Positions 6,596-50,779 of a DNA stretch of 56,328 bases are shown here, piece after piece. Below the pieces are notes generated by a model. It saw nothing but the letters and a program-made list of their open reading frames with translations. It was not told the DNA's origin and made no database searches. Positions within the stretch are counted from its first letter, which is position 1, and every line of letters begins with the position of its first letter. The position numbers and the translations under genes are program-made. Source of the stretch: a virus (Duplodnaviria; Caudoviricetes); IMG/VR virus record IMGVR_UViG_3300008448_000099, positions 1 through 56,328 of that record; one strand, given 5' to 3'.

Positions 6596-6599
6596 GTGA

Positions 6600-7281: not shown

Positions 7282-7282
7282 C

Positions 7283-15800: not shown

Positions 15801-17991
15801 GGCGGCAGGAGCAAACTACAACGACACCAAGAAACAGGCTCTTGATGCCGGAATGAGCGAGGCAGATGCACACGCTGCCGCTCAAAAGTCAGCGGGAGCC
15901 GCCGGAGCACTTGCGTTTGTTCTTGGGCCTGTAGCAGAGATGCCCTTAATTAAACGAGCCGGAGATCTTGTTGAGGGTGTCGCACAGACAGGCGTTAAAC
16001 AAAGCGCCAAAGAGGTCGGCAAAACAGTAGGCAAAGAAGTTGTAACTGAGAGCGCTGAAGGCGGCGGTGCTGCTGCCGTTGGAAGTTACTTTGCTACCGG
16101 TCAGGTTGACATGAATCAGGTGCTGACTTCAGCGGTGCTTGACCCTGCGGTTGCAGGAAATGTATCCGGAACGGTTGCCACGGTTGTGGAGGTTGCAGGC
16201 AATAAGCCCGCTACAGGCGAAATGATCTCTGCATCGGTTTCCAATCCTGAGCAAGCTCAGACCCTCATTAACACGGTCAACACGGCCATGCAGCCAGGGG
16301 CAGATCTGAAGCAGGCAAGCATAGAAATTGTTTCAACCTTGACGGCTTCTGGAATGAACACTCAGCAGGCTGAGAGCGTAGCAAACACGGCAGTTGCTGA
16401 GCAGATTATTACGAACATCAACAATTACGGTGATCTAAATATTCCGAATGTGAATATTACAGTCGGTGCTGATAAGTTTGGAAACGCGGTTACCTTAGGC
16501 GACTACTTGGGTAGCTCTGTAACCGGCTTAGGAAATATTGAGTATATTGCACCTGATGTCTCTATCGGAACCAATGCGCAGGGTCAGCCAATTACCGTAG
16601 GTGATCTGTCAAGTTTGGGTAAGTTTGGAGCGGCTACTGATACAACTCAAGCTGCTGACACAACGCAGGTTGCTGATACGACTACGGACACAAAGACCGG
16701 AGCCACTACATCGACGGACGCTACTACCGGGGCTACAACTCAGACAACTACTGACGCGGCCACAAACACGACTACTGAAACAACGACAAATAACAATACA
16801 GGTGTCAACACGCAGGTTGTTACAGACACAAAGAATGACACAAAGACAACCACAACGACTGATACCAATACAAATACAACCACTCAGACAACAACAAATG
16901 CTGAGACAAATGTAACTACTGAAACGACGGTCAATACTGACACAAATACCGTCACTCAGACTAATACAGACCCGAATACCAACACCCAGACAACAACTCA
17001 GATTGATAACAGCACAAATGTTGTCACAGAGACCAAGACTGATAACAACTCAAGTACTGAAACAAAGGTAGTTACTGACCCAAATAATAATATTCAGACA
17101 ACCACAGTTATTGACACGAGCACAGGCGAGGTTATTGACACCAAGACGACGGTTGTTCCACCGGATTGGAAAGAGCCGGATATTGATACGCCTGATCCGG
17201 TAGAACCTACAGAACCTGATACCAAGACCAAGACAACGCCGACCAAGAAAACGCCAACAAAAACCCAGCCGTCACCGGCGCTTGGTTTAAGTTTATTGGC
17301 TGCACCTACAATTTTCCCTGACGATGGGCCAAAGTTTAAAGACCCGTTCATTACAAGCGCGGCTGAACAACGCAAGTTTGTCGGCTCTCTTGATCCATTC
17401 TTCCAAGAGGTGGAATCAGGAGATATGCTTCACCCTGACTTTATGGCTCAAGCGCCGTCCATGCAATTACAAGACCAAGAAGATACGAAGGAAGAAACGA
17501 TGCCCAATTACTTTACCTATGGGATGCAGACAGACCTTGATAGTCTGTTTGGCCCATTCGGTGCCACCGGAACCGGCTTGTCTCAGTTTGAAGATGAGAT
17601 GGCTGCTAAGCGCGGCGGTTTAGCCGCTCCTCTAATGGCAGGTGGCGGTCTTACCCGATACGGTCGGTATGCCGGCGGAGGCGTACCCTTGGTAGCGCAT
17701 TCAGGCAAGACAAGGGTAGACTTCCGTCAGGGTGACGCGGTGACGGGGCCGGGAGATGGTCAATCTGACAGCATCCCTGCAATGCTCGCAGACGGGGAGT
17801 TTGTGATCCCTGCCGATGTCGTGGCCGCCCTTGGGAACGGTTCTACAAAGGCTGGATCAGACAAACTATACGACATGATGCACTCCATACGGGCTTATCA
17901 CCGATCGGCTAAACCGAAAGACCTGCCTCCTGAGGCAAAGGCAAACCCGTTGGACTATCTGAAAAAACCCTCCCGAAAGGCTAGGAGATAA
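12889..17991 (+). CDS. Very large putative internal virion/ejection protein
   Basis: About 1700 aa with Ala/Gly-rich helices, a Thr-rich tract and a C-terminal 'GPGDGQSDSIPAMLADGEFV' domain. ATG 12889 follows the previous stop. Confidence 0.65.
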   Translation: MAFEDDIYQNSFLGFRPNRMREFRDYEDAGIDVFAPTSQDMNAANIANTANTTPASNIDQFQEGIDSQISALNQVSDSSLTTEQTTKQTTGALPGGKTDTVTVADTAITGALPGGSADTVTATAQDVVTGATTGAETKAADTSGALTTATTDMSQQGALPGGTQTATTTTAKTTDPKDLVYDYQGKSYDKNQLLSLAAQIGPNITSLAGGVFSTSGQSVGFDFDEATKILGAEPTVGQQVVLDMARNLLNMGVTDLSQLNIKEQKEDLEVFEILDDQGRPTGTYGTSVQDPNNPEGTMTRILTPEEAARIRTESTQGSEGDNVRKIAEDILTGRTLYSGDQLINASNQVTEGLSFDIGVTYTGPDSTRYRLIMNPTTGKPEFAAYYSSTSDMDKVGAILTMASFVPQLAVFAKAIQAGIAIKNGDVLNGLANLAGVGGFNNVATALQVANAAKNGDAVQLVSALVSNADVAKAAGDIKIAGDISLKDVGNGIKLADAINNQNWSGALTIAGTMSNSPDLVTAGAATKVITAIQSGNPILIADAAMNLNKVTNAANNITDQNVATKIADSVKNTQVASLNTSVTGTATDAVGDMLDTTVGGGGNDLTVKADDVSAEDTFTGLDQLAVDTFVDAKNKGATDEEALNAANSVLTASKTTVDEFGGFGDATKATTERNVLNISNTEANTPEEAANLAASKGYSSFTFGGTTYALSASAQDVDRQVANQEIASQSSFNDAYKVARERLGPGQTFEWNGKSYSTDTREENPVLAAASDAAIAAKTATKTYTNYDTKSMADAQSQIDLSGLDQAQTYGTFDPFLKSAGLGGEYIIVDDKISKQIIDPVVKTVGLATRGVGGIVDFTAGTLQAINVIDKNSPLIQIASDLKELGNQQVGEYLVNQEKEFVSRISEAEGLTGKLKALADGIIKNPSALLTLGASELVEEAPSVVGAVVSIIARAPKIIAYGVNAVTNLVEAAGANYNDTKKQALDAGMSEADAHAAAQKSAGAAGALAFVLGPVAEMPLIKRAGDLVEGVAQTGVKQSAKEVGKTVGKEVVTESAEGGGAAAVGSYFATGQVDMNQVLTSAVLDPAVAGNVSGTVATVVEVAGNKPATGEMISASVSNPEQAQTLINTVNTAMQPGADLKQASIEIVSTLTASGMNTQQAESVANTAVAEQIITNINNYGDLNIPNVNITVGADKFGNAVTLGDYLGSSVTGLGNIEYIAPDVSIGTNAQGQPITVGDLSSLGKFGAATDTTQAADTTQVADTTTDTKTGATTSTDATTGATTQTTTDAATNTTTETTTNNNTGVNTQVVTDTKNDTKTTTTTDTNTNTTTQTTTNAETNVTTETTVNTDTNTVTQTNTDPNTNTQTTTQIDNSTNVVTETKTDNNSSTETKVVTDPNNNIQTTTVIDTSTGEVIDTKTTVVPPDWKEPDIDTPDPVEPTEPDTKTKTTPTKKTPTKTQPSPALGLSLLAAPTIFPDDGPKFKDPFITSAAEQRKFVGSLDPFFQEVESGDMLHPDFMAQAPSMQLQDQEDTKEETMPNYFTYGMQTDLDSLFGPFGATGTGLSQFEDEMAAKRGGLAAPLMAGGGLTRYGRYAGGGVPLVAHSGKTRVDFRQGDAVTGPGDGQSDSIPAMLADGEFVIPADVVAALGNGSTKAGSDKLYDMMHSIRAYHRSAKPKDLPPEAKANPLDYLKKPSRKARR

Positions 17992-17993: not shown

Positions 17994-19016
17994 ATGGCAA
18001 TTACCCAAGGTGCTCCGTTACCCGATATCACGCAGACGACAACTAGAACCGATACTGCGCCTGATTACTACACTAGTTACCTCCAAAGCCTATCGGACGC
18101 CGCCAAAACAGGCATGGGGCGTACCGCAGAACAAGGAATTGCAGGGTATGACCCACTCCAAACCCTTGGTTATGGCCAAGTAGAAGGTGCTGCCGGGGCA
18201 TATAAACCCGGTCTTTCGGCAGCTACGGCAACAGCAGGAAAGGCTGCGGCCGGCCTTGATCCATCCCGTATTGCCGCTCTCATGGACCCGTATCAAAAGC
18301 AGGTCGTTGATGAGATGGCTCGGCTCCAAGAGCAAAATATCCAACGATCGGTTCTGCCGTCCCTAAAGGGTGCCTTTGTTGGTCGCGGTGACCTAGGAAG
18401 CTCACGGTACGCCGGGGCTACAGGGCAGACCTTAGCCGATATGCAGCGCAACCTGATGGGTCAGCAATACGGTGCCTTATCTCAGGGCTACGGAAACGCT
18501 CTGAAGGCGGCCATGGATGAATTAAACCTTCAGAACCAGGCGGCTCAGGTGCAGGGAAAACTAGCTGAAATGGAGCAGTCTTTAGGGCTGACCGGGGCAG
18601 GAGCCCTATCCAAAGCCGGTGCTGAGAAGCAGGCTTATGAGCAGGCTAAGTTGGACTTTCCAATGAAGACCGCTACCGATGCCGCCGCCTTGATGCGCGG
18701 CTTCCAAGTTCCGACAACCCAAACCGAAAAGTTTGTGGGGCCAAAGGCAGGGATGTATCAGACCTCCCCGCTTTCTAACATCCTTGGCGTTCTTTCTACG
18801 ATTGGCGGAATCAAGGGCGGATCAGCCGGAGACAAGCTAATTGGTAGCGTACTTTCTGGATTTAAAGACCTTTTCTCAGGTGGAGAAGGTGGAGGATTTA
18901 ACTGGGAAGAATGGGCAAAGACTGCATCCGGCACCCCTGGGGAAGGCTACAACTTTGAAGAAGAAGATTATGGCGGTCTTGCTAGAGGTGGTCTCGCTCA
19001 CATTCGCCGCCGTTAG
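17994..19016 (+). CDS. Putative DNA ejection (pilot) protein
   Basis: Q/A/G-rich helical sequence with 'MDPYQKQVVD' and 'GAF...GSSR', as in podovirus ejection proteins. Confidence 0.6.
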   Translation: MAITQGAPLPDITQTTTRTDTAPDYYTSYLQSLSDAAKTGMGRTAEQGIAGYDPLQTLGYGQVEGAAGAYKPGLSAATATAGKAAAGLDPSRIAALMDPYQKQVVDEMARLQEQNIQRSVLPSLKGAFVGRGDLGSSRYAGATGQTLADMQRNLMGQQYGALSQGYGNALKAAMDELNLQNQAAQVQGKLAEMEQSLGLTGAGALSKAGAEKQAYEQAKLDFPMKTATDAAALMRGFQVPTTQTEKFVGPKAGMYQTSPLSNILGVLSTIGGIKGGSAGDKLIGSVLSGFKDLFSGGEGGGFNWEEWAKTASGTPGEGYNFEEEDYGGLARGGLAHIRRR

Positions 19017-21926: not shown

Positions 21927-21967
21927 AGGGATGATCTCCTCTACTTCAGCCATGGAGTAGCTCCCAC

Positions 21968-32510: not shown

Positions 32511-32526
32511 AACCGATTCGGTTTTA

Positions 32527-32785: not shown

Positions 32786-32801
32786 GCCTGAGAGAGGATG
32801 A

Positions 32802-33002
32802 ATGCAATACTTGCTAAACCCAAGAAAGAGGATCTCAGCCGCCCACCTATGGTTAGGGGAAGACACCGCCTGTAGGATGTACTCGACGGGAGGGCTCAGA
32901 CCTGAAAGGCAGAAGATCTTCGATAGTCCGATGGGAAAGAAGATATGCCTGATGTGCTCTAACAGTATTGGGAGAGTGGCACAAAAGCCTGATAGCGATT
33001 AG
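32802..33002 (+). CDS. Small Cys/His (Zn-binding) protein
   Basis: GAGGA RBS. H...C...CLMC. Confidence 0.55.
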   Translation: MQYLLNPRKRISAAHLWLGEDTACRMYSTGGLRPERQKIFDSPMGKKICLMCSNSIGRVAQKPDSD

Positions 33003-35083: not shown

Positions 35084-38000
35084 ATGGGCAAGATCAACAA
35101 ATTAGTCAAAGCCGCCGAAAAGGCTTCCGAAAAAGCCAATGATGCGGCAGTTAAAGTTGCCCGTCAGATGGCCAAAGAAAGTCAGTATCGGCGCATCCTT
35201 CCGCAGATTAAAGAGCGGGGCGGTGAGTTTGGCGTCCAGCGTCTTGAAAAAGCGTTTGATGAGATCCCAAACATTGACCGGCAATTCAAGGACGAAGCCC
35301 TGATCTATAGTTTGACCCCAGGCGATAACGCCACCTCCCTAATGATCATGCGACCGGGAGACTTTGAGAAGTATGCAGAGCCGCTGGACTTCTTGGGCGA
35401 CCTGAACATCACAGAGCTGGATAAATACCTGAATGAACTGGGCACGATTGCGCGTTCTGGCGGTTTTAGTGATGTGCCATTTCTTGAGATTAACGAAATG
35501 AAAGGTTCTCCGCGGTTGCAGATCAGCGGCCATGAAGGCCGGCACCGGATGCGAGCTCTTGACCGGTTGGGCGATGAGGCATCTTTAGTCCGTGTCTTGC
35601 CAAGAGGGTCAGTCCGTGAGCCACTCCCGCGTCGATCCGCTGATCAATACCTGAAGGCGTTAGCAGAAAAGTATGGCGATCCCCTTGATGTTGAACCTGA
35701 GGTAGCAACCGGTGAGCGCCTATTATTGCCAAAACAATTTGCCGCTGGCGGTGCCATTGATGGAAGTCTGAAGAAGTGGTTTGCGGCTGGAGGCGCAGTT
35801 AAGAAAATGGCAAAGGCTGCAAGCAAAGCCGCAGAGAAGGCTAGCCGTGCAGAGCTTCAAGCCCAAGCCAAGGCGCTAGGCTTGCCTGCCGCACGACCGA
35901 ACTCTGAGCTTCAACGGATGCTGGACTTGGTCAACACCGATCCCAAGACTTGGACGCGGGAAGACTATGAGTTCATGCGGCCACAGTTGGCCATCCATCA
36001 AGACCTGCGCCCCAGAAGCGAGGAGCGGGTTGAATCGATAATGTCCAAGGGTCTCAGCCGTGGAATGGTTGACTACCCGCAGACCATGGAAGGACAGGGA
36101 TACAGTTTCCTGAAGGAGTTGGAGAGTCCAAACAGTTATGTCTTCCTAAGGGGTGGCCTAAAGTTCAAGCCTGATAGCCCGTCATTAGAGGAAGGCAATA
36201 TGCCTCTATTCAAGATCAGCCCGGAGAAGGGTCAGAGCCTTTATGAGGCCATCGTAAACACGGCAGTCAAGGCCGAACCCAAAAAGGCAAACGGAGGCAA
36301 AGTGAGCTCCCCGAACAATAGAGCAATCATGAACTCGCTAGTGAATATGGTGAACCAAGCCTTAGCCGGCAAGCCGATGAAGGCGGGTGGCGTGGTCAAG
36401 ATGCAGAGTGGCGGTAGCCCAACCCAAGCCATCCAAGAGCAGCTGGCCGCTGGCGTCCCCGTGTTTATGTCCCAAGGTCCTGAAGGTGCGGTTGCCCGTC
36501 AGATCATAGCCGATGAGGAAGCAGAGCGACGCCGCAAGGAAGAGGAGCGCAAGGCTCGAGTAGCCGCTCTCCCCCTGAAAGAGAAAGCCCGTGGCGTCAT
36601 GGAGACCGGGCAGACCTTGCAGAACATCGTCGGCCAGGAGCTGCTCAAGCCCTTCCGGATGTTGGCCGGTGGGGAAGAGTCGATCAAGGCTGCGGAAGAG
36701 CGCACACCTCTGCCGACCTCAGAAGCCGGAGTCCATTACCTTGGCGAAACCGGCGAGGCTCTTGGTAAGGTAGGCAAGTTCCTTGAGCCACTCAAGATCC
36801 CTGACACGCCCCTGACAGAGCTGACCCCAACGACCTATCTGCCAGGTCTTAGCCAACAGATCGGGTCGATCGCAAGCAAGGCCGCCAAGACAATAGGGAC
36901 GGCAGTTCCTGAGCACTTTGCTACCGCTCCCGTTGGTGCCGTTGGCGGAGAGAAGATCAAGGTTCCGGCTGATCGGTCAGGCTTTTACTCCCCCACGGAG
37001 AAGGCGGCGGTCAACCTTCAGCGCAAGCAGGGAACCGGCCAAGTATTCCTGAATGACCTGATGAAGCAACCCGATGTCAAAAAGAATGAGCTAGAAGCGA
37101 CCGGGCTGGCTGAGTGGTTGAAGGGCAAGGAAAGCGTCACCAAAGACGAAATCGTTGACTACATCGACAACAACCGGATCGTTATTGAAGAGCGGATGCG
37201 TGGCGAGCCCCTGAGCAAGGATGAGCTGGTCAAACTTCAACAGATTGAACGGGCGGTGTCGAAGGGCTGGTACGATGTCCCGCAAGAGGATCTTGATTGG
37301 TTTGAGCAGACCAAGATGAAGCGTCTCTATTCTGAGATGCAGCCCCCCAACTTTGACCGGGATGACCTGAAGATTGAAGGCGGGAGCAACTACCGTGAGC
37401 TCCTTCTGAAGTTCCCCGTTGAGGAAGGCAAGCCGACTTACACCTCCTCCCATTGGGAATCCGATCCCAATACCTTTGCCCATATCCGGATGCAGGACAC
37501 GACCCTCAATGGCAAAAAGACCTTGGTCATTGAAGAGATCCAATCCGATTGGCACCAAGAGGGCCGGGACAAGGGGTATAGATCCGATGAGGAAAAGATC
37601 AAATGGGAAGACCCGCGCTACGTTGAGGCAAGAAAAAGAAGCATGGAGCTGGGGAATGAATACAACAGAAACAATGACAATCCAGCTCGGCAAGACGAAA
37701 TTCGCCCGTTGCTAGATGAGGTGCGTAACGAAGTTTTCAAAATTGAGCAGTTCAATAACGCAATAGACAAAAGGGTTCCTGAAGCCCCCTTCAAGGACGA
37801 TTGGTATCAGATCGCCTTGAAGCGAGCCATGAAGTACGCCGCAGACAATGACTACGATGCCGTGGCTATTGTTGGCGGGGCGGAGCAAGCTGATCGCTAT
37901 GCCTTGAGCCGCAAGATCGATTCGATCGATGTCAGCAAGGTTGAGGGTGGCCGAACCGTATCGGTTGAGACTAAGGGCAACAAGTTCGTCCAGTTCTTGG

Positions 38001-39610
38001 TTGACGAGAACGGCATCGTTAAAGACTCCTCCTCCCGTGAGTTTGACCGGGCTGAGGGCAAGTCTATCGCCGATGTGGTTGGCAAAGCCGTTGGCCGCGA
38101 GATCATGAAGATGGACGATGGCCGTATTGCCGGCATTGATTTGGATATCGGCGGCGAGGGCATGAAGAAGTATTACGATGAGATCTATCCCCGATTCCTT
38201 GAGAAGCAGTACAGGAAGTACGGGGTCAAGCCTGAACCGACTCAGCGCCCAAAACGTCAATACACAGAGCGGGACATTGAAATTGAGGAGACTGGAGAGG
38301 TGGATCGCTTTGGTCGCCCAACCTATGGGTACTCTGTGATTGACCCTGAAACCGGGGATACGGTTGCCTACGAATCAAACATTGAAAAGGCTATCGCACA
38401 AGCAAACAAGAAGGCTCCCAATGTTCCTCTATGGGTCATGGATGTGCCGGTAAAGATGAAGGCTGATGTGAAGAAGGGTCAGCCGTTCAAAGCCGGTGGC
38501 GCAGTCAAGATGGCCAAGGGCGGTATTGCTAAGATCGCCAAAGCGGCTGAAAAGGCGGCAGGCGCGGCCACCAAGCGTATGAGCCGTGAAGAGGCTGAGA
38601 AGGCTGGCTTATGGCATGGGATCTCTGAGACAAAACTGCCTAAACCCATCGGTGAATACAAGTTCAAGGTAGCTGAGGAAAAGGGAGTGCAAATGCTACC
38701 CCGCAGAGTTATTAGCCCGGAAGAAATGCAGGGCGGAGTTGCCATACCTCTTGCCGGTGATCGAGCCGCTGCAGGCAAAATCATTGAAGAGATCGAAGGC
38801 ATTCCAATGAACGTCCTTCTTGAGGGCGGTGGAGACTTCATGCGCCGCAATCCGGGTAAAGGCTGGGCATCAGAAAAAAACGCTTTAGGCACCATCGGGA
38901 AACAAATCAGAAGAGCCGCTGAGTCTGGAGACCCGGTTTATGGCATTCATACATCGATGAGCCCGGTATCTGTTGACTTCAACACGATGGTTACGGAGTC
39001 TATCCTTAATCGCTTAGATGTTGGCAATTTGCGTAAAAAAGACATTGAAGAATTTGATCGTGCGGTTCGGTCAGTTAAGGGGCAGCAGGGCAAGTTCAAG
39101 GCTCCTAACTTCCCTGGCCTTGCAGATCCTGAATTGCGTGAGAAGCTTATGACGGGGCCAGGCGGCCAGCGAGACGCCTTCGTGAAGACAATGTCAAAAG
39201 CTGGCTTTGCCAAGCGAGGATTTCCTGATGTTGTGCCATCCCGATTGGCGGTAACAGAGGCTGAATTGCTTGATGTCCCCCGTGGCGCTTCAGGCTATGC
39301 AATCGCACAGATGGACCCTGAGGCGAGGATTGTTCAAGAGGTTGGGCATAAGAGCTATCCGTACGAACTGTTGGGCGACTATGTCGGAGGCTTTGAGACA
39401 TTATTGCCTGTAGAGGTCATGTACCCGTCTCACTTTGAAGCCAAGAGGTTGCTTGGTAGCACTCCGGCAGGGGCTCATAAATCATTGGAACTAACCGCCC
39501 CTATTCAATACCTTGACCAACAGTGGCTAGATAACGCAATGAAGTACCTTGAGATGCAGAAAAAGTTAACAGGGCGTAAAAAGGGCGGTCTCGCCCATGT
39601 CCGAAAGTAA
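35084..39610 (+). CDS. Large modular (polyvalent/polyprotein-like) protein between terL and portal
   Basis: 1508 aa with a ParB/Srx-like 'GHEGRHRMRAL' and an 'IEEIQSDWHQ' motif. Modules are separated by xxxGG motifs and 'KAAEKA' helices. Confidence 0.7.
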   Translation: MGKINKLVKAAEKASEKANDAAVKVARQMAKESQYRRILPQIKERGGEFGVQRLEKAFDEIPNIDRQFKDEALIYSLTPGDNATSLMIMRPGDFEKYAEPLDFLGDLNITELDKYLNELGTIARSGGFSDVPFLEINEMKGSPRLQISGHEGRHRMRALDRLGDEASLVRVLPRGSVREPLPRRSADQYLKALAEKYGDPLDVEPEVATGERLLLPKQFAAGGAIDGSLKKWFAAGGAVKKMAKAASKAAEKASRAELQAQAKALGLPAARPNSELQRMLDLVNTDPKTWTREDYEFMRPQLAIHQDLRPRSEERVESIMSKGLSRGMVDYPQTMEGQGYSFLKELESPNSYVFLRGGLKFKPDSPSLEEGNMPLFKISPEKGQSLYEAIVNTAVKAEPKKANGGKVSSPNNRAIMNSLVNMVNQALAGKPMKAGGVVKMQSGGSPTQAIQEQLAAGVPVFMSQGPEGAVARQIIADEEAERRRKEEERKARVAALPLKEKARGVMETGQTLQNIVGQELLKPFRMLAGGEESIKAAEERTPLPTSEAGVHYLGETGEALGKVGKFLEPLKIPDTPLTELTPTTYLPGLSQQIGSIASKAAKTIGTAVPEHFATAPVGAVGGEKIKVPADRSGFYSPTEKAAVNLQRKQGTGQVFLNDLMKQPDVKKNELEATGLAEWLKGKESVTKDEIVDYIDNNRIVIEERMRGEPLSKDELVKLQQIERAVSKGWYDVPQEDLDWFEQTKMKRLYSEMQPPNFDRDDLKIEGGSNYRELLLKFPVEEGKPTYTSSHWESDPNTFAHIRMQDTTLNGKKTLVIEEIQSDWHQEGRDKGYRSDEEKIKWEDPRYVEARKRSMELGNEYNRNNDNPARQDEIRPLLDEVRNEVFKIEQFNNAIDKRVPEAPFKDDWYQIALKRAMKYAADNDYDAVAIVGGAEQADRYALSRKIDSIDVSKVEGGRTVSVETKGNKFVQFLVDENGIVKDSSSREFDRAEGKSIADVVGKAVGREIMKMDDGRIAGIDLDIGGEGMKKYYDEIYPRFLEKQYRKYGVKPEPTQRPKRQYTERDIEIEETGEVDRFGRPTYGYSVIDPETGDTVAYESNIEKAIAQANKKAPNVPLWVMDVPVKMKADVKKGQPFKAGGAVKMAKGGIAKIAKAAEKAAGAATKRMSREEAEKAGLWHGISETKLPKPIGEYKFKVAEEKGVQMLPRRVISPEEMQGGVAIPLAGDRAAAGKIIEEIEGIPMNVLLEGGGDFMRRNPGKGWASEKNALGTIGKQIRRAAESGDPVYGIHTSMSPVSVDFNTMVTESILNRLDVGNLRKKDIEEFDRAVRSVKGQQGKFKAPNFPGLADPELREKLMTGPGGQRDAFVKTMSKAGFAKRGFPDVVPSRLAVTEAELLDVPRGASGYAIAQMDPEARIVQEVGHKSYPYELLGDYVGGFETLLPVEVMYPSHFEAKRLLGSTPAGAHKSLELTAPIQYLDQQWLDNAMKYLEMQKKLTGRKKGGLAHVRK

Positions 39611-42167: not shown

Positions 42168-42338
42168 ATGTCGGATTACGACAAAGAGCAGAAAACTGAG
42201 TTCGTACCTCAGCACAAACGGATCGCCATGGGCGTTCCTCTTGACGGACAAGATATGCGTCCTTCAAGCAACAAAACCGAATCGGATAGCGATTCGCAAC
42301 CGAAAGGGGGGCTATCACAAGCGACTAAAACCAAATGA
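42168..42338 (+). CDS. Small hypothetical protein
   Basis: AAGGAG RBS before ATG 42168. 'VPQHKRIAMG' motif. Confidence 0.6.
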   Translation: MSDYDKEQKTEFVPQHKRIAMGVPLDGQDMRPSSNKTESDSDSQPKGGLSQATKTK

Positions 42339-42520
42339 GCACAGCAGCAGATCTGATCGGCGCAATTAAGACTAGGCAGGCTGAAATAGCCGCGTCCCTT
42401 GCCGGCGGTACGGCAACGAGTTGGGAGTCTTATCAGCGTTTGGTCGGGCAACACCAGGGCTTACAGGAAGCCTTGGACATACTCAACAACCTATTAAAGG
42501 ATGATGATGCAGATGAATGA
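42335..42520 (+). CDS. Small helical hypothetical protein
   Basis: ATGA overlap. 'Y..LVG...GL..AL' motif preceding the GroES-like gene. Confidence 0.65.
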   Translation: MSTAADLIGAIKTRQAEIAASLAGGTATSWESYQRLVGQHQGLQEALDILNNLLKDDDADE

Positions 42521-42941
42521 ACCGGTAGCGTGTAATGACGCTGAGTTGGCTTGGGCTTTTCCGAGCGTAGACCCCGGTGCGAAACCCCTTGGTGCCCGTG
42601 TATTAGTTCAGTTGCGGCGCACAAAAAAGAAGGCGACTAGCGCAGGGATTATTTTGGTTGAAGAGACCAAAGAAACCGAGAAGTGGAACAACATGGTGGC
42701 TAGAGTCATTGAGATCGGCCCCTTGGCGTTCAAAAAGCGCGACACGATGGAGCCATGGCCTGAGGGCTCATGGTGTGAGGTTGGCGACTATATCCGCGTC
42801 CCGAAGTGGGGCGGCGATCGTTGGGAAGTAGAAGTCCCCGGCGAGAAGGATGAGGACCCTGCCCTCTTTATGGTGTTAAACGACCATGAAGTCATTGCCA
42901 AATTGACCGGCGATCCGCTAGCAGTCAAAGCCTTTATCTAA
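42513..42941 (+). CDS. groES: GroES-like co-chaperonin
   Basis: 'KPLGARVLV', mobile-loop 'TSAGIIL', 'VIEIGP', 'VGD.I...KWGG' and 'LNDHEVIA'. Confidence 0.8.
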   Translation: MNEPVACNDAELAWAFPSVDPGAKPLGARVLVQLRRTKKKATSAGIILVEETKETEKWNNMVARVIEIGPLAFKKRDTMEPWPEGSWCEVGDYIRVPKWGGDRWEVEVPGEKDEDPALFMVLNDHEVIAKLTGDPLAVKAFI

Positions 42942-45085: not shown

Positions 45086-46000
45086 ATGGCAGCCCCGATG
45101 CGTAGTACCGACTTTAGAAGTATTGTTGAGCCAATCCTTAACGAATGCTTCGATGGAGTCTATGATCAGCGTACCGATGAGTGGTCGCGTGTTTTCCGCG
45201 AGCAACAAGGTATTCCCCGCAACTATCACGAAGAGCCCGTCCTTTATGGATTTGGCGCTGCGCCCCAACTGCCTGACGGTACTCCGGTAACGTATCAGCA
45301 GGGTGGCGTACTCTTCCTGAAGCGCTATGTGTACTCGGTGTATGGCCTTGCCTTCGCCCTGACCAAAGTGCTCGTGGAAGACGGCGACCATATCCGTATT
45401 GGTCAGGTATATGCTCGTCACCTAGCTCAGTCCTTGATTGAAACCAAGGAAACGCTGGCTGCGAACATTCTTAACCGTGCGTTTAACTCCGCTTACCCTG
45501 GTGGCGATGGCGTTCAACTGAACTCCGCTTCGCATCCGATTGTAAACGGTACATTCAGCAACCTGCTGACAACCCCTGCAAACCTGTCGCAGACCTCGCT
45601 TGAGCAGATGCTCATTCAGATCCGTCAGGCAGTAGACAACAACGGCAAGAAGATCCGTTTGGTGCCCCGTCAGTTGGTCGTGGCTCCTGGCAATGTCTTC
45701 CAAGCTGAAGTTCTGCTGAAGTCCGTGCTCCGTGCAGGCAACGCAAACAACGACATCAACCCGATCAAGTCCATTGGACTGCTCGACGAGGGTGCTGCTG
45801 TTCTGTCGCGTCTGACCTCTGCAACGGCTTGGTGGGTTCAGACGGATGCTCCGGAAGGCATGAAGCTCATGATGCGTCGTGGTCTTGAGAAGACCATGGA
45901 AGGTGACTTTGAGACCGACACAATGCGGTACAAGGCAACTGAGCGTTATGACCTCGGCTTCACCGATCCCCGTGCTATGTACGGTACACCTGGCGTCTAA
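45086..46000 (+). CDS. Major capsid protein
   Basis: 304 aa with an AAGGAGG RBS and strongly biased codons. HK97/Mu gpT-like features: 'YGLAF..T....ED', 'LVVAP', 'GDFET...RYKA.ERY..G..DPR..YG'. Confidence 0.85.
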   Translation: MAAPMRSTDFRSIVEPILNECFDGVYDQRTDEWSRVFREQQGIPRNYHEEPVLYGFGAAPQLPDGTPVTYQQGGVLFLKRYVYSVYGLAFALTKVLVEDGDHIRIGQVYARHLAQSLIETKETLAANILNRAFNSAYPGGDGVQLNSASHPIVNGTFSNLLTTPANLSQTSLEQMLIQIRQAVDNNGKKIRLVPRQLVVAPGNVFQAEVLLKSVLRAGNANNDINPIKSIGLLDEGAAVLSRLTSATAWWVQTDAPEGMKLMMRRGLEKTMEGDFETDTMRYKATERYDLGFTDPRAMYGTPGV

Positions 46001-46733: not shown

Positions 46734-47621
46734 ATGGGTCAGTTCAAGCCAATGGTCAAAATGATGACCACGGAGCCCACCGTTGAGTTAAAACTCAAAA
46801 AGGGCGGGAAGGTTGAGAAGAAGATGCAGTCGGGCGGGGCTTTGGCTTCCACGGCTTCTCCTGCCCCGGCAGCAATGTCGATGGCAGGGGATACCATGGG
46901 TGGTGCCGCTCCTATGCGTCCTTCTTTGGCCGCTCGTCGCCGCATGATGCGTAATCGTCCTTCAGGTGCGGCTCCCGCTGCTCCCGTTGGTTCGGCAGCA
47001 CAAGTCATGAAAAAAGGCGGTGAGACCAAGGCTGAACACGCAGCCGAGATGAAGAAAATGGCTAAGACCGCTGAGAAGCTGAAAGAGCACGCCGACAAGC
47101 CTGCTTCCAAGGCTCACAAGGGTCTGAAGACAGGCGGCGTTGTGAAGGGTCAAGGCGGTTACAAGACCGGTGGCGTAGTGATGGGTCAGGGCGGCTATAA
47201 GGCCGGCGGGATCATCACGGAGAAGGAAGGGTCGAAAGACGCTGGTGAATACAAAAACACCAAGATGGTCACGACCAAGCCCGATCATTCGCCTGCAAAA
47301 ACCGGTGGCGTGAAGCTCGGCAACGGCGGTGGCTACAAGAAAGGCGGTGCCGCAAAAAAGTATGCTGAGGGCGGGTCGGTGAACGATTCTGGTAAGGCTG
47401 AAAAGATGCCTCAGGGTCGTAAGAAGCCGTCTGCGTCCGTAAGCATTACTGAACTCTCCGGAACCTTCAAAAAGGGTGGGTCAGTAATGACCCCGGCAGA
47501 GAAGCGTTTGACTAAGGTATTTGATAAGGAAAACGCCCCTGCAATGAAGGCTGCTAAGACCAAGGATGTTGAGGTCTATAGCAAGTACGGAAAGAAAATG
47601 CGGTACGGTGGTTCGTGCTAA
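46734..47621 (+). CDS. Lys-rich low-complexity protein with 11 xxxGG motifs (putative internal head protein)
   Basis: LKKGG, MQSGG, MKKGG, LKTGG, YKTGG, YKAGG, AKTGG, YKKGG, YAEGG, FKKGG and MRYGG. Confidence 0.7.
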   Translation: MGQFKPMVKMMTTEPTVELKLKKGGKVEKKMQSGGALASTASPAPAAMSMAGDTMGGAAPMRPSLAARRRMMRNRPSGAAPAAPVGSAAQVMKKGGETKAEHAAEMKKMAKTAEKLKEHADKPASKAHKGLKTGGVVKGQGGYKTGGVVMGQGGYKAGGIITEKEGSKDAGEYKNTKMVTTKPDHSPAKTGGVKLGNGGGYKKGGAAKKYAEGGSVNDSGKAEKMPQGRKKPSASVSITELSGTFKKGGSVMTPAEKRLTKVFDKENAPAMKAAKTKDVEVYSKYGKKMRYGGSC

Positions 47622-47623
47622 AC

Positions 47624-47651
47624 AAGGTAGGGGCTTCGGCCCCTGCTTTTT
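47624..47651 (+). terminator. Intrinsic terminator with cUUCGg loop
   Basis: gtaggggc-ttcg-gcccctgc followed by ttttt. Confidence 0.85.
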
Positions 47652-47666
47652 AGTGAGGAATAAAAG

Positions 47667-47972
47667 ATGAAATTGCAGACTGTAAGCCAAACCGGAGTGG
47701 GCTCAAGCGATCCGATCGTGATGAACCTGAACGCCACCCCTTTCAATGTTGGCTTTGGCGTGGTGAAAAGCGGAACTGTCGATTACACCGTTCAGCATAC
47801 TTTTGACGATCCAGCGGTTGGGTTTACCACTTGGTTTCCGCATCCAACAGTAGCCGCTCAGATTGCAAACGCTGACGGAAACTATGCTTTCCCAGTAACG
47901 GCTATCCGGGTGACCATGAATTCGGGAACCGGCACCGCTACCTTGAAACTGATTCAAGCAGGCATTGCGTAA
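47667..47972 (+). CDS. Small beta-sandwich virion protein
   Basis: GAGG RBS. All-beta pattern. Confidence 0.6.
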   Translation: MKLQTVSQTGVGSSDPIVMNLNATPFNVGFGVVKSGTVDYTVQHTFDDPAVGFTTWFPHPTVAAQIANADGNYAFPVTAIRVTMNSGTGTATLKLIQAGIA

Positions 47973-48193
47973 TGGCCGGCGGCGTTGGCTTTGAAGAAGT
48001 AGCGAATTTCGCTAATACCTTCCCTGGGCAAGCCTCAGGTACGGTTGCTGACGCTCATAACGGATACGGCAATGATGTTGGAGGCCAATCGGTGATTGTT
48101 CGAGGGCCGGTAGCCGCAGGACCCTATTACATCCTGATGGAAAGCACAGGCTATGTCCTTCAGGAAAACAGCGACAAGATTGAGTTGGAGTAA
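47972..48193 (+). CDS. Small virion protein
   Basis: TAATG coupling. C-terminal 'ILMESTGYVLQENSDKIELE'. Confidence 0.6.
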   Translation: MAGGVGFEEVANFANTFPGQASGTVADAHNGYGNDVGGQSVIVRGPVAAGPYYILMESTGYVLQENSDKIELE

Positions 48194-48196
48194 AAA

Positions 48197-48778
48197 ATGG
48201 CAGATACCAAGATCTCAGCAATGACCGCGGCTTCGCTACCATTAGATGGCACGGAGTTAGTGCCTATTGTTCAGAGCGGCAATAACAAAAAGACCACAGT
48301 AGCTGATATTGACGCTTACAACAGGTCTTACGGCCAATGGAGCGATTCAACTAGTCAGACCGGCAATATTTCTGCCGGAACGGTCATGACGTTTAATACG
48401 CAGGATGTTGTCGACACCATTACATTGGTTGGCGGCACCCAATTTACCGTTCCAAATACCGGTATTTATGACCTGCAATTTAGCGCTCAACTTAAAAATA
48501 CTGACAATACCCAACATGAGACGGTCATTTGGTTCAAGGTAAATGGTACGGATGTGCCTAGTTCAGCTACTGCTATTACTGTTCCTGCTCGAAAAACAGC
48601 AAACATTTATGGTTATGCCGTAGCCGCATGGAACATTTTCTTTGACTTAAATTCAAACGATTACGTTGAAATTTATTGGTTGCCATCATCAACTTTGGTA
48701 ACCCTTTCTGCACAGTCTTCGACGGCTACGCATCCTGCGATTCCATCGGTCATCGCAACCTTACAGCAGGTGGCATGA
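48197..48778 (+). CDS. Head/neck fibre protein with a C1q/TNF-like beta C-terminal domain
   Basis: 'MADTKISAM...GTELVPIVQSG...KTT' N-terminus and 'FTVPNTGIY.LQFSAQL...L..NDYVEIYW'. Confidence 0.6.
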   Translation: MADTKISAMTAASLPLDGTELVPIVQSGNNKKTTVADIDAYNRSYGQWSDSTSQTGNISAGTVMTFNTQDVVDTITLVGGTQFTVPNTGIYDLQFSAQLKNTDNTQHETVIWFKVNGTDVPSSATAITVPARKTANIYGYAVAAWNIFFDLNSNDYVEIYWLPSSTLVTLSAQSSTATHPAIPSVIATLQQVA

Positions 48779-48978
48779 TGCCAGCCAAGTCAAAATCTCA
48801 GTTTCGGCTAATGAAAGCGGCTGAATACAACCCTAAGTTTGCTAAGAAGGTTGGTATTAAGCCTTCTGTGGCGGCTGAGTTTACTGAAATGAATGTCGGC
48901 AAGAAGTCTTATGCAAAATTGCCTGACTCAAAGCCTGCAAAAAAATCAGGCGGAAAAATTAAGAAAGGGGTGTTTTAA
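48775..48978 (+). CDS. Small Lys-rich protein
   Basis: MPAKSKSQFRLM.AA..NP.FAKKVGI..SVAAEF, with an ATGA overlap. Confidence 0.7.
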   Translation: MMPAKSKSQFRLMKAAEYNPKFAKKVGIKPSVAAEFTEMNVGKKSYAKLPDSKPAKKSGGKIKKGVF

Positions 48979-49446
48979 ATGGCTATGAATCCTATGGGTG
49001 ACGACTTTAAATTGATGACCCCAATTGCTCCAGATGTAAAAAGCCCGTTACGCGCTGGGCCAGACTTGACTCCTCGTCAAATTTTTAATCAACAACGAGA
49101 AGCCGCACAAGTTGCTAGACGAACTGCTATGCAGCCAGTTCGTCAAATGCAAGATATTGCTCAACGGCGTGCAGCAAAAGAGTCTGTTATGTCAAATTAT
49201 AAAAACGCAGTTGAAAAAGCAAGGGATGCTTTTAACCTTGCTAAAGCAGGTCCGCGCACTGGTGGGGATATGTTGCCACCCGGAAAGGCTCCAATTACCG
49301 ACATGGGTCCGGGTAGTGGTCTAGCGCCAAAAGCAGGGCAACCAATGGCATCCGCCCCAGTACCAAGTACTCCACCCGGAATGAAAAAGGGCGGCAAGAC
49401 TACCGTGGTAAAGACGGCCTCCAAAGGCAGAAAGTGCGATTGGTAA
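48979..49446 (+). CDS. Low-complexity protein with MKKGG motif
   Basis: Contiguous in the operon. Ends in CDW. Confidence 0.6.
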   Translation: MAMNPMGDDFKLMTPIAPDVKSPLRAGPDLTPRQIFNQQREAAQVARRTAMQPVRQMQDIAQRRAAKESVMSNYKNAVEKARDAFNLAKAGPRTGGDMLPPGKAPITDMGPGSGLAPKAGQPMASAPVPSTPPGMKKGGKTTVVKTASKGRKCDW

Positions 49447-49447
49447 A

Positions 49448-49705
49448 ATGGCTACCTCCAAGAAGGATGTGAACTTAGCCGTTGGCCGCGGAGAAAAGCT
49501 CCCCGTATCGAAAGGTGCTGGGCTAACTGCTAAAGGTCGGGCTAAGTACAACCGGGAGACCGGTAGCGATCTAAAAGCGCCTCAGCCACAGGGCGGTAAA
49601 CGCCGGGATTCATTCTGTGCTCGTATGGGTGCGATTGCTACCAAAAGCGAGCGGGGAAGTCGTGCCCGCGCATCTATGAAGCGTTGGAACTGTCCGGGGT
49701 GGTAA
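49448..49705 (+). CDS. Small basic protein (DUF6321-like)
   Basis: 'GLTAKGRAKYNR.TGS.LKAP...RR.SFCARM...RW.C'. Confidence 0.65.
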   Translation: MATSKKDVNLAVGRGEKLPVSKGAGLTAKGRAKYNRETGSDLKAPQPQGGKRRDSFCARMGAIATKSERGSRARASMKRWNCPGW

Positions 49706-50779
49706 ATGGCCTATTCAGGAACCGTAGGAACCACGGTCATCAATGTTCAAACGATGATCGATCATGCGGCAAGACGGAGCGGGAAACTTGCTGAAGAACT
49801 GACCTCTGAGCAGATCATCTCTGCTCGAGAGTCGTTATTTTTTGCTTTATCTGCCCTTGCCAACAAAGGCATCAATTATTGGGCGATCAATAAGAAGGTC
49901 ATTGGTCTAAAGGCTAATCAATACATTTATAAGCTACCGATTGGTGCTATAGATGCCCTGAATGTGCTCTATCGGACGATGAATCGACCGGTTGGGGACT
50001 ATGCTACTAGCGCAGGAGGTACAGTTGGCTTCGTCGCAGACTCCGACATTGACACTTATTGTCAGCAATCCTCAGCGAACGGAAACATCTCCGTTTATTA
50101 CGGTACCGATAACCCAATTTATGCTGGCTCCATTGGTTTTCTGCCTTACATTTCAGGCGGCGGTAGTGCTACTTGGTCTATCATTCTTGAGTATTCGACT
50201 GACGGCAGCACCTGGAACACGCTTGAGGACTTGGGGACGATAGCCGTCACCGACAATGAGTGGGTTTGGACTGATGTTGACCCCGGTCAGAATGTTGAGT
50301 ACTACCGAATCCGGGCTTATAACGGCACAACGCTAGCTTTGCGGGAGTTTTATGTCGGAAATAACGCCCGTCTGATCCAAATGTCCCGCTTAAACCGGGA
50401 TGACTACACAAATCTGCCCAATCAGAACTTCACGGCTAACCAGCCATATCAGTTTTGGTTCGATAGAACGATCCCTCAGCCGACTATGTACCTTTGGCCG
50501 GTGCCTTCTGACCCGTTTATTCAGATGACGGTGTGGTATTCCCGTCAGATCATGGATGTCGGGGCTTTGACCAATGAGCTAGAGGTGCCTCAAAGATGGT
50601 ATGAGGCCACAATCTTCATGCTTGCCCACCGGATGGCGCTTGAGATGCCTAATGTGGCTCCTGATCGCATTGCTTACCTAGAAAAGATGGCCGATCGGTA
50701 CATCTATGAGGCTGAGCAGGAAGAGCGCGACAAGTCGCCTATCTACTATGCGCCTAACATTGCGGTCTACACCCGATAA
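49706..50779 (+). CDS. Putative tail adaptor (tubular protein A-like) with an inserted discoidin-like domain
   Basis: Helical ends and 'YLWPVP'. Central 'LEYSTDGSTW...YYRIR'. Confidence 0.55.
   Translation: MAYSGTVGTTVINVQTMIDHAARRSGKLAEELTSEQIISARESLFFALSALANKGINYWAINKKVIGLKANQYIYKLPIGAIDALNVLYRTMNRPVGDYATSAGGTVGFVADSDIDTYCQQSSANGNISVYYGTDNPIYAGSIGFLPYISGGGSATWSIILEYSTDGSTWNTLEDLGTIAVTDNEWVWTDVDPGQNVEYYRIRAYNGTTLALREFYVGNNARLIQMSRLNRDDYTNLPNQNFTANQPYQFWFDRTIPQPTMYLWPVPSDPFIQMTVWYSRQIMDVGALTNELEVPQRWYEATIFMLAHRMALEMPNVAPDRIAYLEKMADRYIYEAEQEERDKSPIYYAPNIAVYTR

What the first reader, a model, noticed from the sequence alone, without database searches (positions are those of the whole stretch)
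46734..49446. Genome-wide xxxGG peptide code in virion-region proteins (candidate undescribed cargo targeting/processing system)
Seen: the 295-aa protein is essentially a string of 11 [LMYFA]-[KQAR]-x-G-G motifs. The same motif occurs 8 times in the 1508-aa protein, 3 times in the 1700-aa ejection protein, and once each in the 340-aa protein (LARGG), the 48775 protein (KKSGG) and the 48979 protein (MKKGG). That is about 25 copies in six otherwise unrelated proteins, always in linkers or near termini. Caveat: the SSB-like tail has a chance-like KKSGG. Inference: a shared short linear signal for loading proteins into the prohead and/or a maturation cleavage site (by analogy with double-glycine leaders and the T4 capsid-targeting sequence), with the 295-aa protein as a multivalent core organiser.
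Basis: partly seen in the sequence, partly recalled or inferred. Interest (0 to 1): 0.85.

Follow-up and report, generated by a model that had tools for sequence, protein, structure and literature searches.

The report
Shared Gly-Gly tag in phage cargo proteins
A short peptide (hydrophobic, Lys/Ala, any residue, Gly, Gly) really does recur at the ends and joints of the proteins this freshwater phage probably carries inside its head, and one disordered basic protein is built almost entirely of it; what reads the tag is still unknown.

Summary
The 295-aa protein (46734-47621) has 11 [LMYFA][KQAR]xGG motifs, against 0.6 expected from shuffles. The 1508-aa pre-portal protein has 7, against 0.8 expected. 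The whole proteome has 28, against 9.4±3.1. Single hits in the 340-aa, 155-aa and 67-aa proteins are at chance level in this window alone.

Relatives show the motif is under selection:
- 64 distinct orthologues of the 295-aa protein keep 8-14 copies while their length varies from 196 to 469 aa.
- 85 homologues of the pre-portal protein carry 287 copies, against 41 expected. None of 19 copies lies inside a Pfam domain hit.
- In 39 of 41 fused forms of the 67-aa/85-aa pair the motif sits at the joint. Seven stand-alone genes start at that same point.

The 295-aa protein is predicted to be disordered (pLDDT 47) and has net charge +34. The same motif flanks the GEFV element of tape measure proteins, including lambda gpH, and lies next to the mapped T5 pb2 cut (R1127|AEGG).

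I read it as a portable junction and tag peptide of virion cargo proteins. Loading or docking is somewhat more likely than cleavage. No protease was found, and no binding partner is shown.

This scan had already noted the same motif on at least eight related genomes and in giant tape measures. My searches found nothing in print.

The parts
46734..47621 (+). Gene of the 295-aa multi-tag protein (p295). It has pI 10.1, net charge +34, a single Cys as the last residue, and 11 motifs.
   Evidence: AlphaFold2 gives mean pLDDT 46.8 with only three short helices. No Pfam, PHROG or NCBIfam hit. At least 4929 database clusters match at E<=1e-3, nearly all unnamed or 'hypothetical'.
46794..46838 (+). 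Motif doublet LKKGG / MQSGG (residues 21-35) after the invariant N-terminus.
   Evidence: L21, K22, K23, G24, G25, G34 and G35 are invariant in 41 aligned orthologues.
47124..47210 (+). Tandem cluster LKTGGVVKGQGGYKTGGVVMGQGGYKAGG (residues 131-159).
47295..47375 (+). Cluster AKTGG / YKKGG / YAEGG (residues 188-214).
47466..47480 (+). FKKGG245, with F, G and G invariant in orthologues.
47598..47618 (+). C-terminal tag MRYGGSC. Nearly all listed orthologues end in basic-GG, then 1-5 residues, then Cys.
35084..39610 (+). Gene of the 1508-aa pre-portal protein (p1508), a polyvalent-type cargo protein.
   Evidence: Homologues of residues 620-1508 carry ART-PolyVal, LPD23, LPD38 and related domains. 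The protein itself has no Pfam hit.
35738..35794 (+). Junction FAAGG...FAAGG (residues 219-237).
36377..36415 (+). Junction MKAGGVVKMQSGG (residues 432-444).
38486..38524 (+). Junction FKAGGAVKMAKGG (residues 1135-1147), between the two conserved blocks.
   Evidence: Coverage dip. The same doublet occurs in homologue P0392.
39575..39607 (+). C-terminal tag RKKGGLAHVRK.
   Evidence: 15 of 39 distinct pre-portal C-termini and 44 of 85 homologues end in a basic-GG tag.
17605..17988 (+). C-terminal GG-GEFV module of the 1716-aa ejection protein (p1716). Three GG motifs at 17605-17682 are followed by GDGQSDSIPAMLADGEFV.
   Evidence: tblastn matches tape measure proteins.
18978..19013 (+). C-terminal tag LARGGLAHIRRR of the 340-aa ejection-module protein (p340).
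   Evidence: Kept in only about 9 of 69 orthologues.
42168..42338 (+). 56-aa ORF after the portal gene (p56), ending KGGLSQATKTK.
   Evidence: Most of the 45 hits end in GGL[SAQ]QA.KK.
48775..48978 (+). 67-aa protein (p67) ending KKSGGKIKKGVF. It is the upstream half of a protein that is fused in most relatives.
48979..49446 (+). 155-aa protein (p155) with MKKGG at 49381-49395, near the C-terminus. It is inserted between the two halves.
   Evidence: No homologue in the 80 capsid-anchored loci.
49448..49705 (+). 85-aa protein (p85), the downstream half. It starts at the point where fused relatives carry the motif.

Best explanation
The motif is hydrophobic-[K/A]-x-G-G, usually followed by V/A-V/A-K or a short basic amphipathic stretch. 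I read it as a portable junction and tag peptide of the proteins that this podophage packs in its head and sends through its tail.

It marks module ends. Cassettes are fused, split, inserted and swapped at this point. Stand-alone modules keep the tag at their C-terminus.

The 295-aa protein is an intrinsically disordered internal protein with charge +34 that consists of about 11 such tags joined by variable spacers.

Shown:
- The motif is enriched.
- Its defined positions are conserved.
- It lies between domains and at termini.
- Gene fusion and fission happen at it.

Inferred:
- The tags are read by a common virion component, which loads or holds the cargo and orders its exit.
- The Gly-Gly also gives a hinge between modules that must thread a narrow channel.
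- Some copies may in addition be cut.
For: Enrichment.

Orthologues of the 295-aa protein next to a capsid protein that is 92-99% identical. 67 of 80 loci have such an ORF, 64 of them distinct:
- Motif count is 8-14 while length runs from 196 to 469 aa.
- The logo around 987 GG sites has 1.5 bits at -3 (Y/M/L/F) and 0.9 bits at -2 (K/A).
- In 41 aligned orthologues of 277-431 aa the count is 9-13. The -3 and GG columns are mostly at least 0.9 conserved, while -1 is free.

Share of GG sites that fit [LMFY][KAR]xGG:
- 0.60 of 807 sites in the 295-aa family.
- 0.21 of 480 sites in pre-portal proteins.
- 0.06 of 1756 sites in other ORFs.

The 85 homologues of the pre-portal protein have 287 motifs against 40.7±5.6 in shuffles. 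44 of 85 carry a basic-GG tag in the last 22 residues. 0 of 19 motifs lie inside Pfam domain hits. Motifs follow ParB_N and ART-PolyVal directly.

Fusion and fission:
- 39 of 41 fused 67-aa/85-aa-type ORFs have the motif 5-6 residues before GRGEKL.
- 7 stand-alone ORFs start at that point.
- Inserts are flanked by two copies.

Stand-alone upstream halves and the 295-aa orthologues keep a constrained tail after GG, with a terminal Cys or CW. This argues for a working tag rather than a discarded stub.

Also:
- [KR]xGGL is 4.4-fold enriched in the last 20 residues, 14 of 38.
- The 295-aa protein is predicted disordered.
- Lambda gpH residues 818-849, which hold MRDGGLFS, are resolved bound to gpI in the virion (passages of PMC12617516; sequence).
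Against: - No receptor is identified.
- The carriers are not shown to be in virions. My class 'internal/ejected' was partly chosen after seeing the motifs.
- Tags are not universal. 15 of 39 pre-portal C-termini have one and about 9 of 69 orthologues of the 340-aa protein.
- Caulobacter phage RW and pelagiphage HTVC023P have no 295-aa-like protein in the stretches read.
- A distant polyvalent protein with seven Pfam domains has only two weak copies.
- The GG-GEFV module does not fold confidently as a monomer (pLDDT 49), so it is not an evident reader domain.
- The one mapped cut in a related context (T5 pb2) fits the cleavage rival.
Confidence: 0.42

Rival explanations
1. Processing sites. The carriers are polyproteins cut at or next to the motif by a host or unrecognised phage protease. 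This would release separate modules, and from the 295-aa protein a set of short basic peptides.
For: - T5 tape measure pb2 is cut after R1127 (passage of PMC10038345). In the sequence this reads FVPR|AEGGMMYP, upstream of a GEH...VV element.
- Lambda gpH loses about 14 kDa from its glycine-rich C-terminal region, where FATGG733 lies. The site and the catalyst are stated to be unknown (sequence).
- Fused and split gene forms are interchangeable at the motif.
- After each doublet in the 1508-aa protein comes a stretch like that protein's own N-terminus.
- Polyvalent proteins are predicted to be processed (PMC5512222).
- One relative carries a RadC-like JAB domain and a putative metallopeptidase domain.
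Against: - No protease domain in the 39 window proteins scanned against Pfam, nor in the PDB sequence searches of the three unassigned head genes.
- Stand-alone proteins keep the motif at their C-terminus with a constrained tail. A pure scissile site would not need that.
- A motif copy in lambda gpH (residues 842-849) is intact in the virion.
- The T5 cut lies before A-E-G-G, not after GG, so the register is unclear.
Confidence: 0.22
2. A passive joint. The motif is only a well-tolerated flexible hinge or beta-turn linker that recombination reuses when it shuffles cassettes. Nothing reads it.
For: - It lies at mosaic breakpoints.
- It is predicted disordered.
- Its use is clade-specific.
- No partner was found.
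Against: - The -3 aromatic/Met/Leu and -2 Lys/Ala positions are conserved far beyond what a hinge needs.
- There are 11 copies in one protein that has no domains to join.
- The C-terminal copies join nothing.
- Codons differ between copies, so DNA homology for recombination is weak.
Confidence: 0.2
3. A DNA-condensing core protein. The 295-aa protein neutralises packaged DNA, the motif is its DNA-contact unit, and copies elsewhere are incidental.
For: - Net charge +34 and pI 10.1.
- Predicted disorder.
- The gene lies in the head module.
Against: - The same motif occurs in the acidic 1716-aa protein (net -90) and at domain borders of enzymes.
- Charge alone does not need a conserved aromatic residue and Gly-Gly.
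Confidence: 0.1

Closest known systems
C-terminal GG-GEFV region of tape measure proteins (lambda gpH, which matures to gpH* plus gpHC; T5 pb2, which matures to pb2* plus pb2C)
   Same: - Hydrophobic-A-x-G-G motifs flank a GEFV-type element. Lambda has FATGG733, GEFV and YATGG778. Nitrincola, Mycobacterium and Arthrobacter phage tape measures show the same pattern.
- The C-terminus of the 1716-aa protein matches these by tblastn.
- The proteins leave through the tail.
- Cleavage occurs in this region in lambda and T5.
   Different: - This is a podophage with no tape measure.
- The motif is multiplied to 11 copies in a separate protein that has no GEFV element.
- It is also used at the joints of a polyvalent protein.
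Polyvalent proteins of phages and conjugative elements (Iyer et al. 2017, PMC5512222)
   Same: - Large mosaic multidomain protein next to the portal gene.
- Homologues carry ART-PolyVal, Kinase-PolyVal, LPD23, LPD3, LPD38, PBECR3, ParB_N and RadC-JAB.
- These proteins are predicted to be packaged and delivered.
   Different: - The 1508-aa protein itself hits no PolyVal or LPD model.
- The words 'linker' and 'glycine' occur 0 times in that paper's main text, so the joint motif is not described there.
Encapsulin C-terminal targeting peptides
   Same: - Short C-terminal peptide after a flexible linker.
- Gly, then hydrophobic anchors, then a basic end. The native peptides are NTGGDLGIRK and PLTVGSLRRGG, as printed in PMC7925596. 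The tags here are KKGGLAHVRK and ARGGLAHIRRR.
- The shell has the HK97 fold, like this capsid protein.
   Different: - The spacing of the hydrophobic residues differs.
- Binding to the capsid protein is not shown.
- Most copies here are internal and repeated.
T4 capsid targeting sequence and double-glycine bacteriocin leaders
   Same: A short peptide directs or marks cargo. Double-glycine leaders also end in GG.
   Different: - Both are single N-terminal leaders removed by a dedicated protease (gp21, or a C39 peptidase; recalled).
- No such protease was found here.
- The motif here is internal or C-terminal and repeated.

Membership tests
Tape-measure-type GG-GEFV module | GEFV-type element (SD[SD]IPA.L..GE[FHY]V) flanked by hydrophobic-A-x-G-G. 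| tested here: met
   Holds for the C-terminus of the 1716-aa protein only. tblastn hits lie under annotated tape measure genes, and the same layout is read in lambda, Nitrincola and actinophage tape measures. The 295-aa protein has no GEFV element.
Tape-measure-type GG-GEFV module | Proteolytic maturation in this region. | not testable with these tools
   Known for lambda and T5 from papers. There are no protein data for this phage.
Polyvalent proteins (Iyer 2017) | Contains PolyVal or LPD hallmark domains. | tested here: inconclusive
   The 1508-aa protein has 0 Pfam families. 31 of 85 homologues of its residues 620-1508 are listed with PF18760, which names as ART-PolyVal. A relative's pre-portal protein hits LPD23.
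Polyvalent proteins (Iyer 2017) | Large mosaic multidomain protein in a phage morphogenesis context. | tested here: met
   1508 aa, directly upstream of the portal gene. Relatives have 357-1538 aa, split or fused, with swapped N-terminal parts.
T4-type capsid targeting sequence | N-terminal leader removed by a prohead protease. | tested here: not met
   The motifs are internal or C-terminal. No prohead protease by Pfam, PHROG or NCBIfam in the head module.
Double-glycine leader with C39 peptidase | Single N-terminal leader ending in GG, plus a C39 peptidase or ABC transporter. | tested here: not met
   The copies are repeated and internal. No peptidase family in the 39 window proteins scanned against Pfam.
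Encapsulin targeting peptide | C-terminal peptide that binds the inner face of an HK97-fold shell. | tested here: inconclusive
   C-terminal position and a loose sequence likeness only. Binding is not established.
KGG stress repeat (Pfam; name recalled) | Match to the repeat model. | tested here: not met
   The 295-aa protein has 0 Pfam families at E<=0.01.

The most novel reading that the evidence does not exclude
A general cargo-tag system of tailed phages. The hydrophobic-K/A-x-G-G element would be the address label that a common site in the procapsid or exit channel reads. Or it would be the 'sticker' by which a condensate of the multi-tag 295-aa protein with DNA or the acidic scaffold recruits client proteins. 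The same element would define the unmapped maturation cut of lambda gpH, in the register seen in T5 (cut just before A-x-G-G). Any domain cassette that ends in the tag could then be loaded and delivered into the host.
Probability: 0.15. Interest if true: 0.85.

Novelty: new variant of a known kind. Interest (0 to 1): 0.6.

Why it matters
How phages choose which proteins to pack inside the head and eject is known for very few systems. A simple portable tag would explain several things:
- how mosaic polyvalent and ejection proteins swap enzyme cassettes;
- what a very abundant family of unnamed proteins in freshwater viromes does (at least 4929 clusters);
- possibly where and how lambda gpH is cut, which a 2025 paper still calls unknown.

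It would also give a handle for loading foreign proteins into phage particles.

Tried and rejected
Complex prediction. I ran the capsid protein (alignment of 74 rows) with residues 236-295 of the 295-aa protein. The verdict was 'no answer', score 0.00 against a mark of 0.32, and the controls were not run. This says nothing either way.

The GG-GEFV module as an autonomous reader or protease domain. The AlphaFold2 monomer has mean pLDDT 49.4, so there was no fold to search with. I ran no fold searches because both models were of low confidence.

Internal Shine-Dalgarno sites. I considered that K-x-G-G codons might act as ribosome binding sites ahead of the Met of the next motif. GGA is only 4 of 52 motif Gly codons, against 79 of 406 Gly codons in the same genes. 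GGAGG is therefore avoided, and I rejected the idea.

DNA repeat. Rejected because the codons differ between copies.

Disulfide from the C-terminal Cys of the 295-aa protein to capsid protein Cys21. That Cys is Ala in a 92%-identical capsid protein, and only 2 of 74 aligned sequences have Cys there. Dropped.

GroES mobile-loop mimicry. The phage's own Cpn10-like protein has TSAGIILV. The likeness to KAGGII or KTGGVV is loose, and the strongest motif positions (-3 and -2) do not match. Kept only as a remote idea.

Searches that gave nothing:
- Protein atlas: no named neighbour at or above 0.9 for the 295-aa protein, and no usable hit for residues 620-1135 of the 1508-aa protein.
- tblastn of the 295-aa protein against the phage records: no match.
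- NCBIfam: nothing relevant.

Literature. I found no description of the motif:
- Motif strings: 353 papers, and all 20 listed were on unrelated subjects.
- 'Tape measure protein' + 'glycine-rich' + 'conserved motif' + 'C-terminal': 1 unrelated paper.
- Capsid-targeting and ejection terms: listing only.
- The ejection-protein review PMC8954989 has 0 occurrences of 'glycine' or 'Gly-Gly'.
- PMC5512222 has 0 occurrences of 'linker' or 'glycine'.

The figure that maps the T5 cut (fig. S5G) and any virion proteomes may bear on this.

Caveats on my counts:
- The ORF sets from loci are mechanical calls.
- includes a few mis-assigned tails (for example adaptor-like tails in L079 and L020).
- classes the 295-aa family by motif count, so its 0.60 is partly circular. 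The pre-portal against other comparison is not.
Full report
WHAT THE WINDOW IS

The window is a podophage-like genome of about 56 kb with nearly all genes on the + strand. The assigned genes are:
- Tail fibres and lysozyme at 33-8253.
- A SU10-adaptor-like protein and tail proteins at 8501-12617.
- An ejection module: the 1716-aa protein (p1716), a 340-aa protein (p340, with a weak 'DNA ejection protein' PHROG hit), a 516-aa protein, and a 446-aa protein with an SLT transglycosylase domain.
- Replication genes at 24.9-30.6 kb.
- Terminase subunits.
- A 1508-aa protein directly upstream of the portal gene (p1508).
- A Cpn10-like gene.
- A coiled-coil, acidic 315-aa scaffold candidate.
- The major capsid protein at 45086-46000 (PF25209).
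- A decoration-like 229-aa protein.
- The flagged 295-aa protein (p295), small basic proteins, and an adaptor.

The nearest records are an uncultured Manatee Spring phage (portal 63% identical), Caulobacter phage RW (45%), roseophages CRP-901/902 and pelagiphages HTVC023P/027P.

THE OBSERVATION

The total is 28 in 49 ORFs.

Shuffles within each protein give these results:
- p295: mean 0.61, none of 2000 reach 11.
- p1508: mean 0.84, none of 2000 reach 7.
- Whole set: 9.4±3.1, maximum 20.
- Local 30-residue shuffles give the same answer.
- The singles in p340 (P 0.5) and p155 (P 0.1) are not significant on their own.
- p1716 is borderline (P 0.05-0.1).

Motif copies use different codons, so the repeat is in the peptide and not in the DNA.

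Density by class:
- 4.4 per 1000 residues in my ten 'internal/ejected candidates'.
- 0.45 per 1000 in 27 other virion and assembly proteins, including Gly-rich fibres.
- 0.43 per 1000 in 13 other proteins.

That classing was partly made after seeing the motifs.

CONSERVATION IN RELATIVES

A capsid-protein scan returned 80 loci with the capsid protein 92-99% identical.

In 67 of them (64 distinct sequences) an ORF of 196-469 aa downstream of the capsid gene has 7 or more motifs.

The logo around 987 GG sites is strongest at -3 (Y 0.25, M 0.22, L 0.14, F 0.11; 1.5 bits) and at -2 (K 0.45, A 0.25). V/A is favoured at +1 and +2, and K at +3.

In an alignment of 41 database orthologues of 67-98% identity:
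- The -3 and Gly columns are mostly at least 0.9 conserved.
- The -1 column is free.
- Motif columns average 0.83 identity against 0.73 for the rest (P 0.004).
- The number of motifs stays at 9-13 while length runs from 277 to 431 aa.

Nearly all orthologues listed end in basic-GG, then 1-5 residues, then Cys. The family has at least 4929 clusters at E<=1e-3. Nearly all of the 120 listed are unnamed or 'hypothetical', and none has a Pfam domain.

AlphaFold2 with this alignment gives mean pLDDT 46.8. It shows only three short helices, and all motif regions are under 50. The protein has pI 10.1 and net charge +34.

p295 is therefore a disordered, basic string of short linear motifs.

THE PRE-PORTAL PROTEIN

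In relatives the pre-portal gene is 357-1538 aa, sometimes split into two ORFs, with swapped N-terminal parts.

Homologue coverage of p1508 shows two conserved blocks, about 620-1130 and 1200-1500. They are separated by a dip at the FKAGGAVKMAKGG doublet.

Homologues of residues 620-1508 carry these domains: ART-PolyVal (PF18760, listed for 31 of 85), Kinase-PolyVal, LPD23, LPD3, LPD38, PBECR3, ParB_N, RadC-like JAB, a putative metallopeptidase and SLT. A relative's pre-portal protein hits LPD23.

This is the polyvalent-protein class of Iyer et al. 2017. p1508 itself hits no Pfam model.

Across the 85 homologues:
- [LMYF][KAR]xGG occurs 287 times against 40.7±5.6 in shuffles.
- 44 of 85 have a basic-GG tag in the last 22 residues.
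- In four proteins with Pfam hits, 0 of 19 motifs fall inside a domain.
- Motifs follow ParB_N (MARGG162, MAGGG170) and ART-PolyVal (FASGG239, LKKGG258) directly.

In the capsid-anchored loci, 15 of 39 distinct pre-portal C-termini end in a basic-GG tag such as KKRRGGLAAMSR or RKRGGLTQLKAR. Other endings exist. One is an extended form, GG...NPDAMRL.

The share of GG sites that fit the motif is 0.21 in pre-portal proteins against 0.06 in all other ORFs.

A NATURAL EXPERIMENT IN THE FLAGGED REGION

The window has the 67-aa protein (p67, ending KKSGGKIKKGVF), then p155 (ending MKKGG...KCDW), then the 85-aa protein (p85).

In relatives the p67-like and p85-like parts are usually one ORF of about 134 aa.
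- In 39 of 41 distinct fused forms a motif ([MLFK]K.GG) lies 5-6 residues before the conserved GRGEKL.
- The 7 stand-alone p85-like ORFs start at exactly that point (MAKNVSLAV; in one case MAKGGVSLAI).
- Longer forms carry an insert flanked by two motif copies.
- When the gene is split, the upstream ORF keeps the motif as its C-terminus (…KMRGGGSCW).

Fusion, fission and insertion all happen at the motif, and the upstream module keeps it.

The 56-aa ORF after the portal gene (p56) ends KGGLSQATKTK, and most of its 45 hits end GGL[SAQ]QA.KK. The GGLAHIRRR tag of p340 is present in only about 9 of 69 orthologues. [KR]xGGL is 4.4-fold enriched in the last 20 residues, 14 of 38. The general motif is not enriched there, because internal copies in p295 dominate the count.

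LINK TO TAPE MEASURE PROTEINS

The three motifs of p1716 belong to a strongly conserved C-terminal module: K.GGLATPLMA.GG.TRYG.YAGGGL…GDGQSDDIPAMLADGEFV.

tblastn of this module hits annotated tape measure genes of Arthrobacter, Mycobacterium, Gordonia, Rhodococcus, Nitrincola and Pseudanabaena phages. It also hits proteins of pelagiphages and Caulobacter phages.

In those tape measures the GEFV-type element is flanked by FATGG, FASGG or FSTGG. Lambda gpH reads FATGG733 … GEFV … YATGG778 … MRDGG842-LFSGGGR.

Passages of PMC12617516 state the following:
- The site and the catalyst are unknown.
- Residues 818-849 are resolved bound to gpI.

PMC10038345 places the T5 pb2 cut after R1127. In the sequence this reads …FVPR|AEGGMMYPGVSYQMGEHGTEVV. 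The only GG nearby thus starts two residues after the cut.

The motif is therefore old and widespread in proteins that leave through the tail. It lies next to the only mapped cut. It also occurs intact in a docking contact.

WHAT READS IT?

No protease domain was found:
- None in the 39 window proteins scanned against Pfam. Sub-pieces of p1508 and p1716 gave nothing either.
- None in the PHROG or NCBIfam scans.
- None in the PDB sequence searches of the three unassigned head genes.

The GG-GEFV module does not fold as a monomer.

The C-terminal tags loosely resemble encapsulin targeting peptides as printed in PMC7925596, and the capsid protein has the HK97 fold. That is a lead only.

WEIGHING THE READINGS

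Points that favour a working tag over a mere scissile site or an inert hinge:
- Stand-alone modules keep the motif at their C-terminus.
- The tail after GG is constrained.
- One protein with no domains to join carries 11 copies.
- A copy is intact in lambda virions.

Points that keep cleavage alive:
- The T5 cut.
- The unmapped lambda cut.
- The equivalence of fused and split gene forms.
- The polyvalent context.

I put docking or loading tag at about 0.42, cleavage at 0.22, passive joint at 0.20 and DNA condensation at 0.10. These readings are not exclusive.

EARLIER NOTES OF THIS SCAN

First readers noted the same multi-tag protein and shared motif on at least eight related genomes. Follow-up agents described GG-GEFV junction modules in giant tape measures and in a podophage ejection protein. 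Notes on this window gave the tape measure lead and the shared C-terminal tag, and I tested both. These notes are not independent evidence.

NOVELTY

My literature searches found no description of the motif. I class it as a new variant of a known kind, namely peptide tags and junctions of virion cargo.

Noticed in passing
48775-49705: The 67-aa and 155-aa ORFs are in the same frame, separated by a single stop codon. The 67-aa and 85-aa proteins are the two halves of one roughly 134-aa protein in most relatives. The 155-aa ORF between them has no homologue in the 80 related loci, so it looks like a gene inserted at the joint.
   Followed up: partly
47616-47618; 49435-49437; 49691-49693: The 295-aa protein, the 155-aa protein and the 85-aa protein each have a Cys within the last four residues. 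In the 295-aa family the terminal Cys is almost universal. Small relatives end in SCW, ACW or CPGW. The role is unknown. A disulfide to capsid Cys21 is unlikely, because that Cys is not conserved.
   Followed up: partly
L053, L078, L051 (pre-portal ORFs); P0446 C-terminus: An extended form of the tag recurs: hydrophobic-K-K-G-G-x-V, then 2-7 residues, then [NT]PD[AT]M[RL]L. A second type is hydrophobic-A-x-G-G, then a short gap, then PD[VM][ST]D.G.
   Followed up: no
L168 (pelagiphage HTVC023P) 21655-22392 and 32480-32863: Two otherwise different proteins end in a similar tag (YNSGG…AAIRGHKFIGVK and YSRGGAAVRGMGFKGVF). Shared C-terminal tags therefore also occur in this more distant relative, with a different sequence.
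   Followed up: no
42501-42941: A Cpn10/GroES-like gene sits inside the head module between the portal and scaffold-like genes. The same is annotated in the Manatee Spring phage, in Caulobacter phage RW and in HTVC023P.
   Followed up: no
35084-35140; 35795-35850; 38525-38570: The N-terminus of the 1508-aa protein (…KLVKAAEKASEKA) resembles the stretches that follow its internal motif doublets (…KMAKAASKAAEKA and …KIAKAAEKAA). N-termini of split relatives have similar basic amphipathic stretches. Each module thus seems to start with such a helix.
   Followed up: partly
8501-9145 and 49706-50779: Two separate proteins match the SU10 adaptor family: one strongly (214 aa) and one weakly (357 aa).
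   Followed up: no
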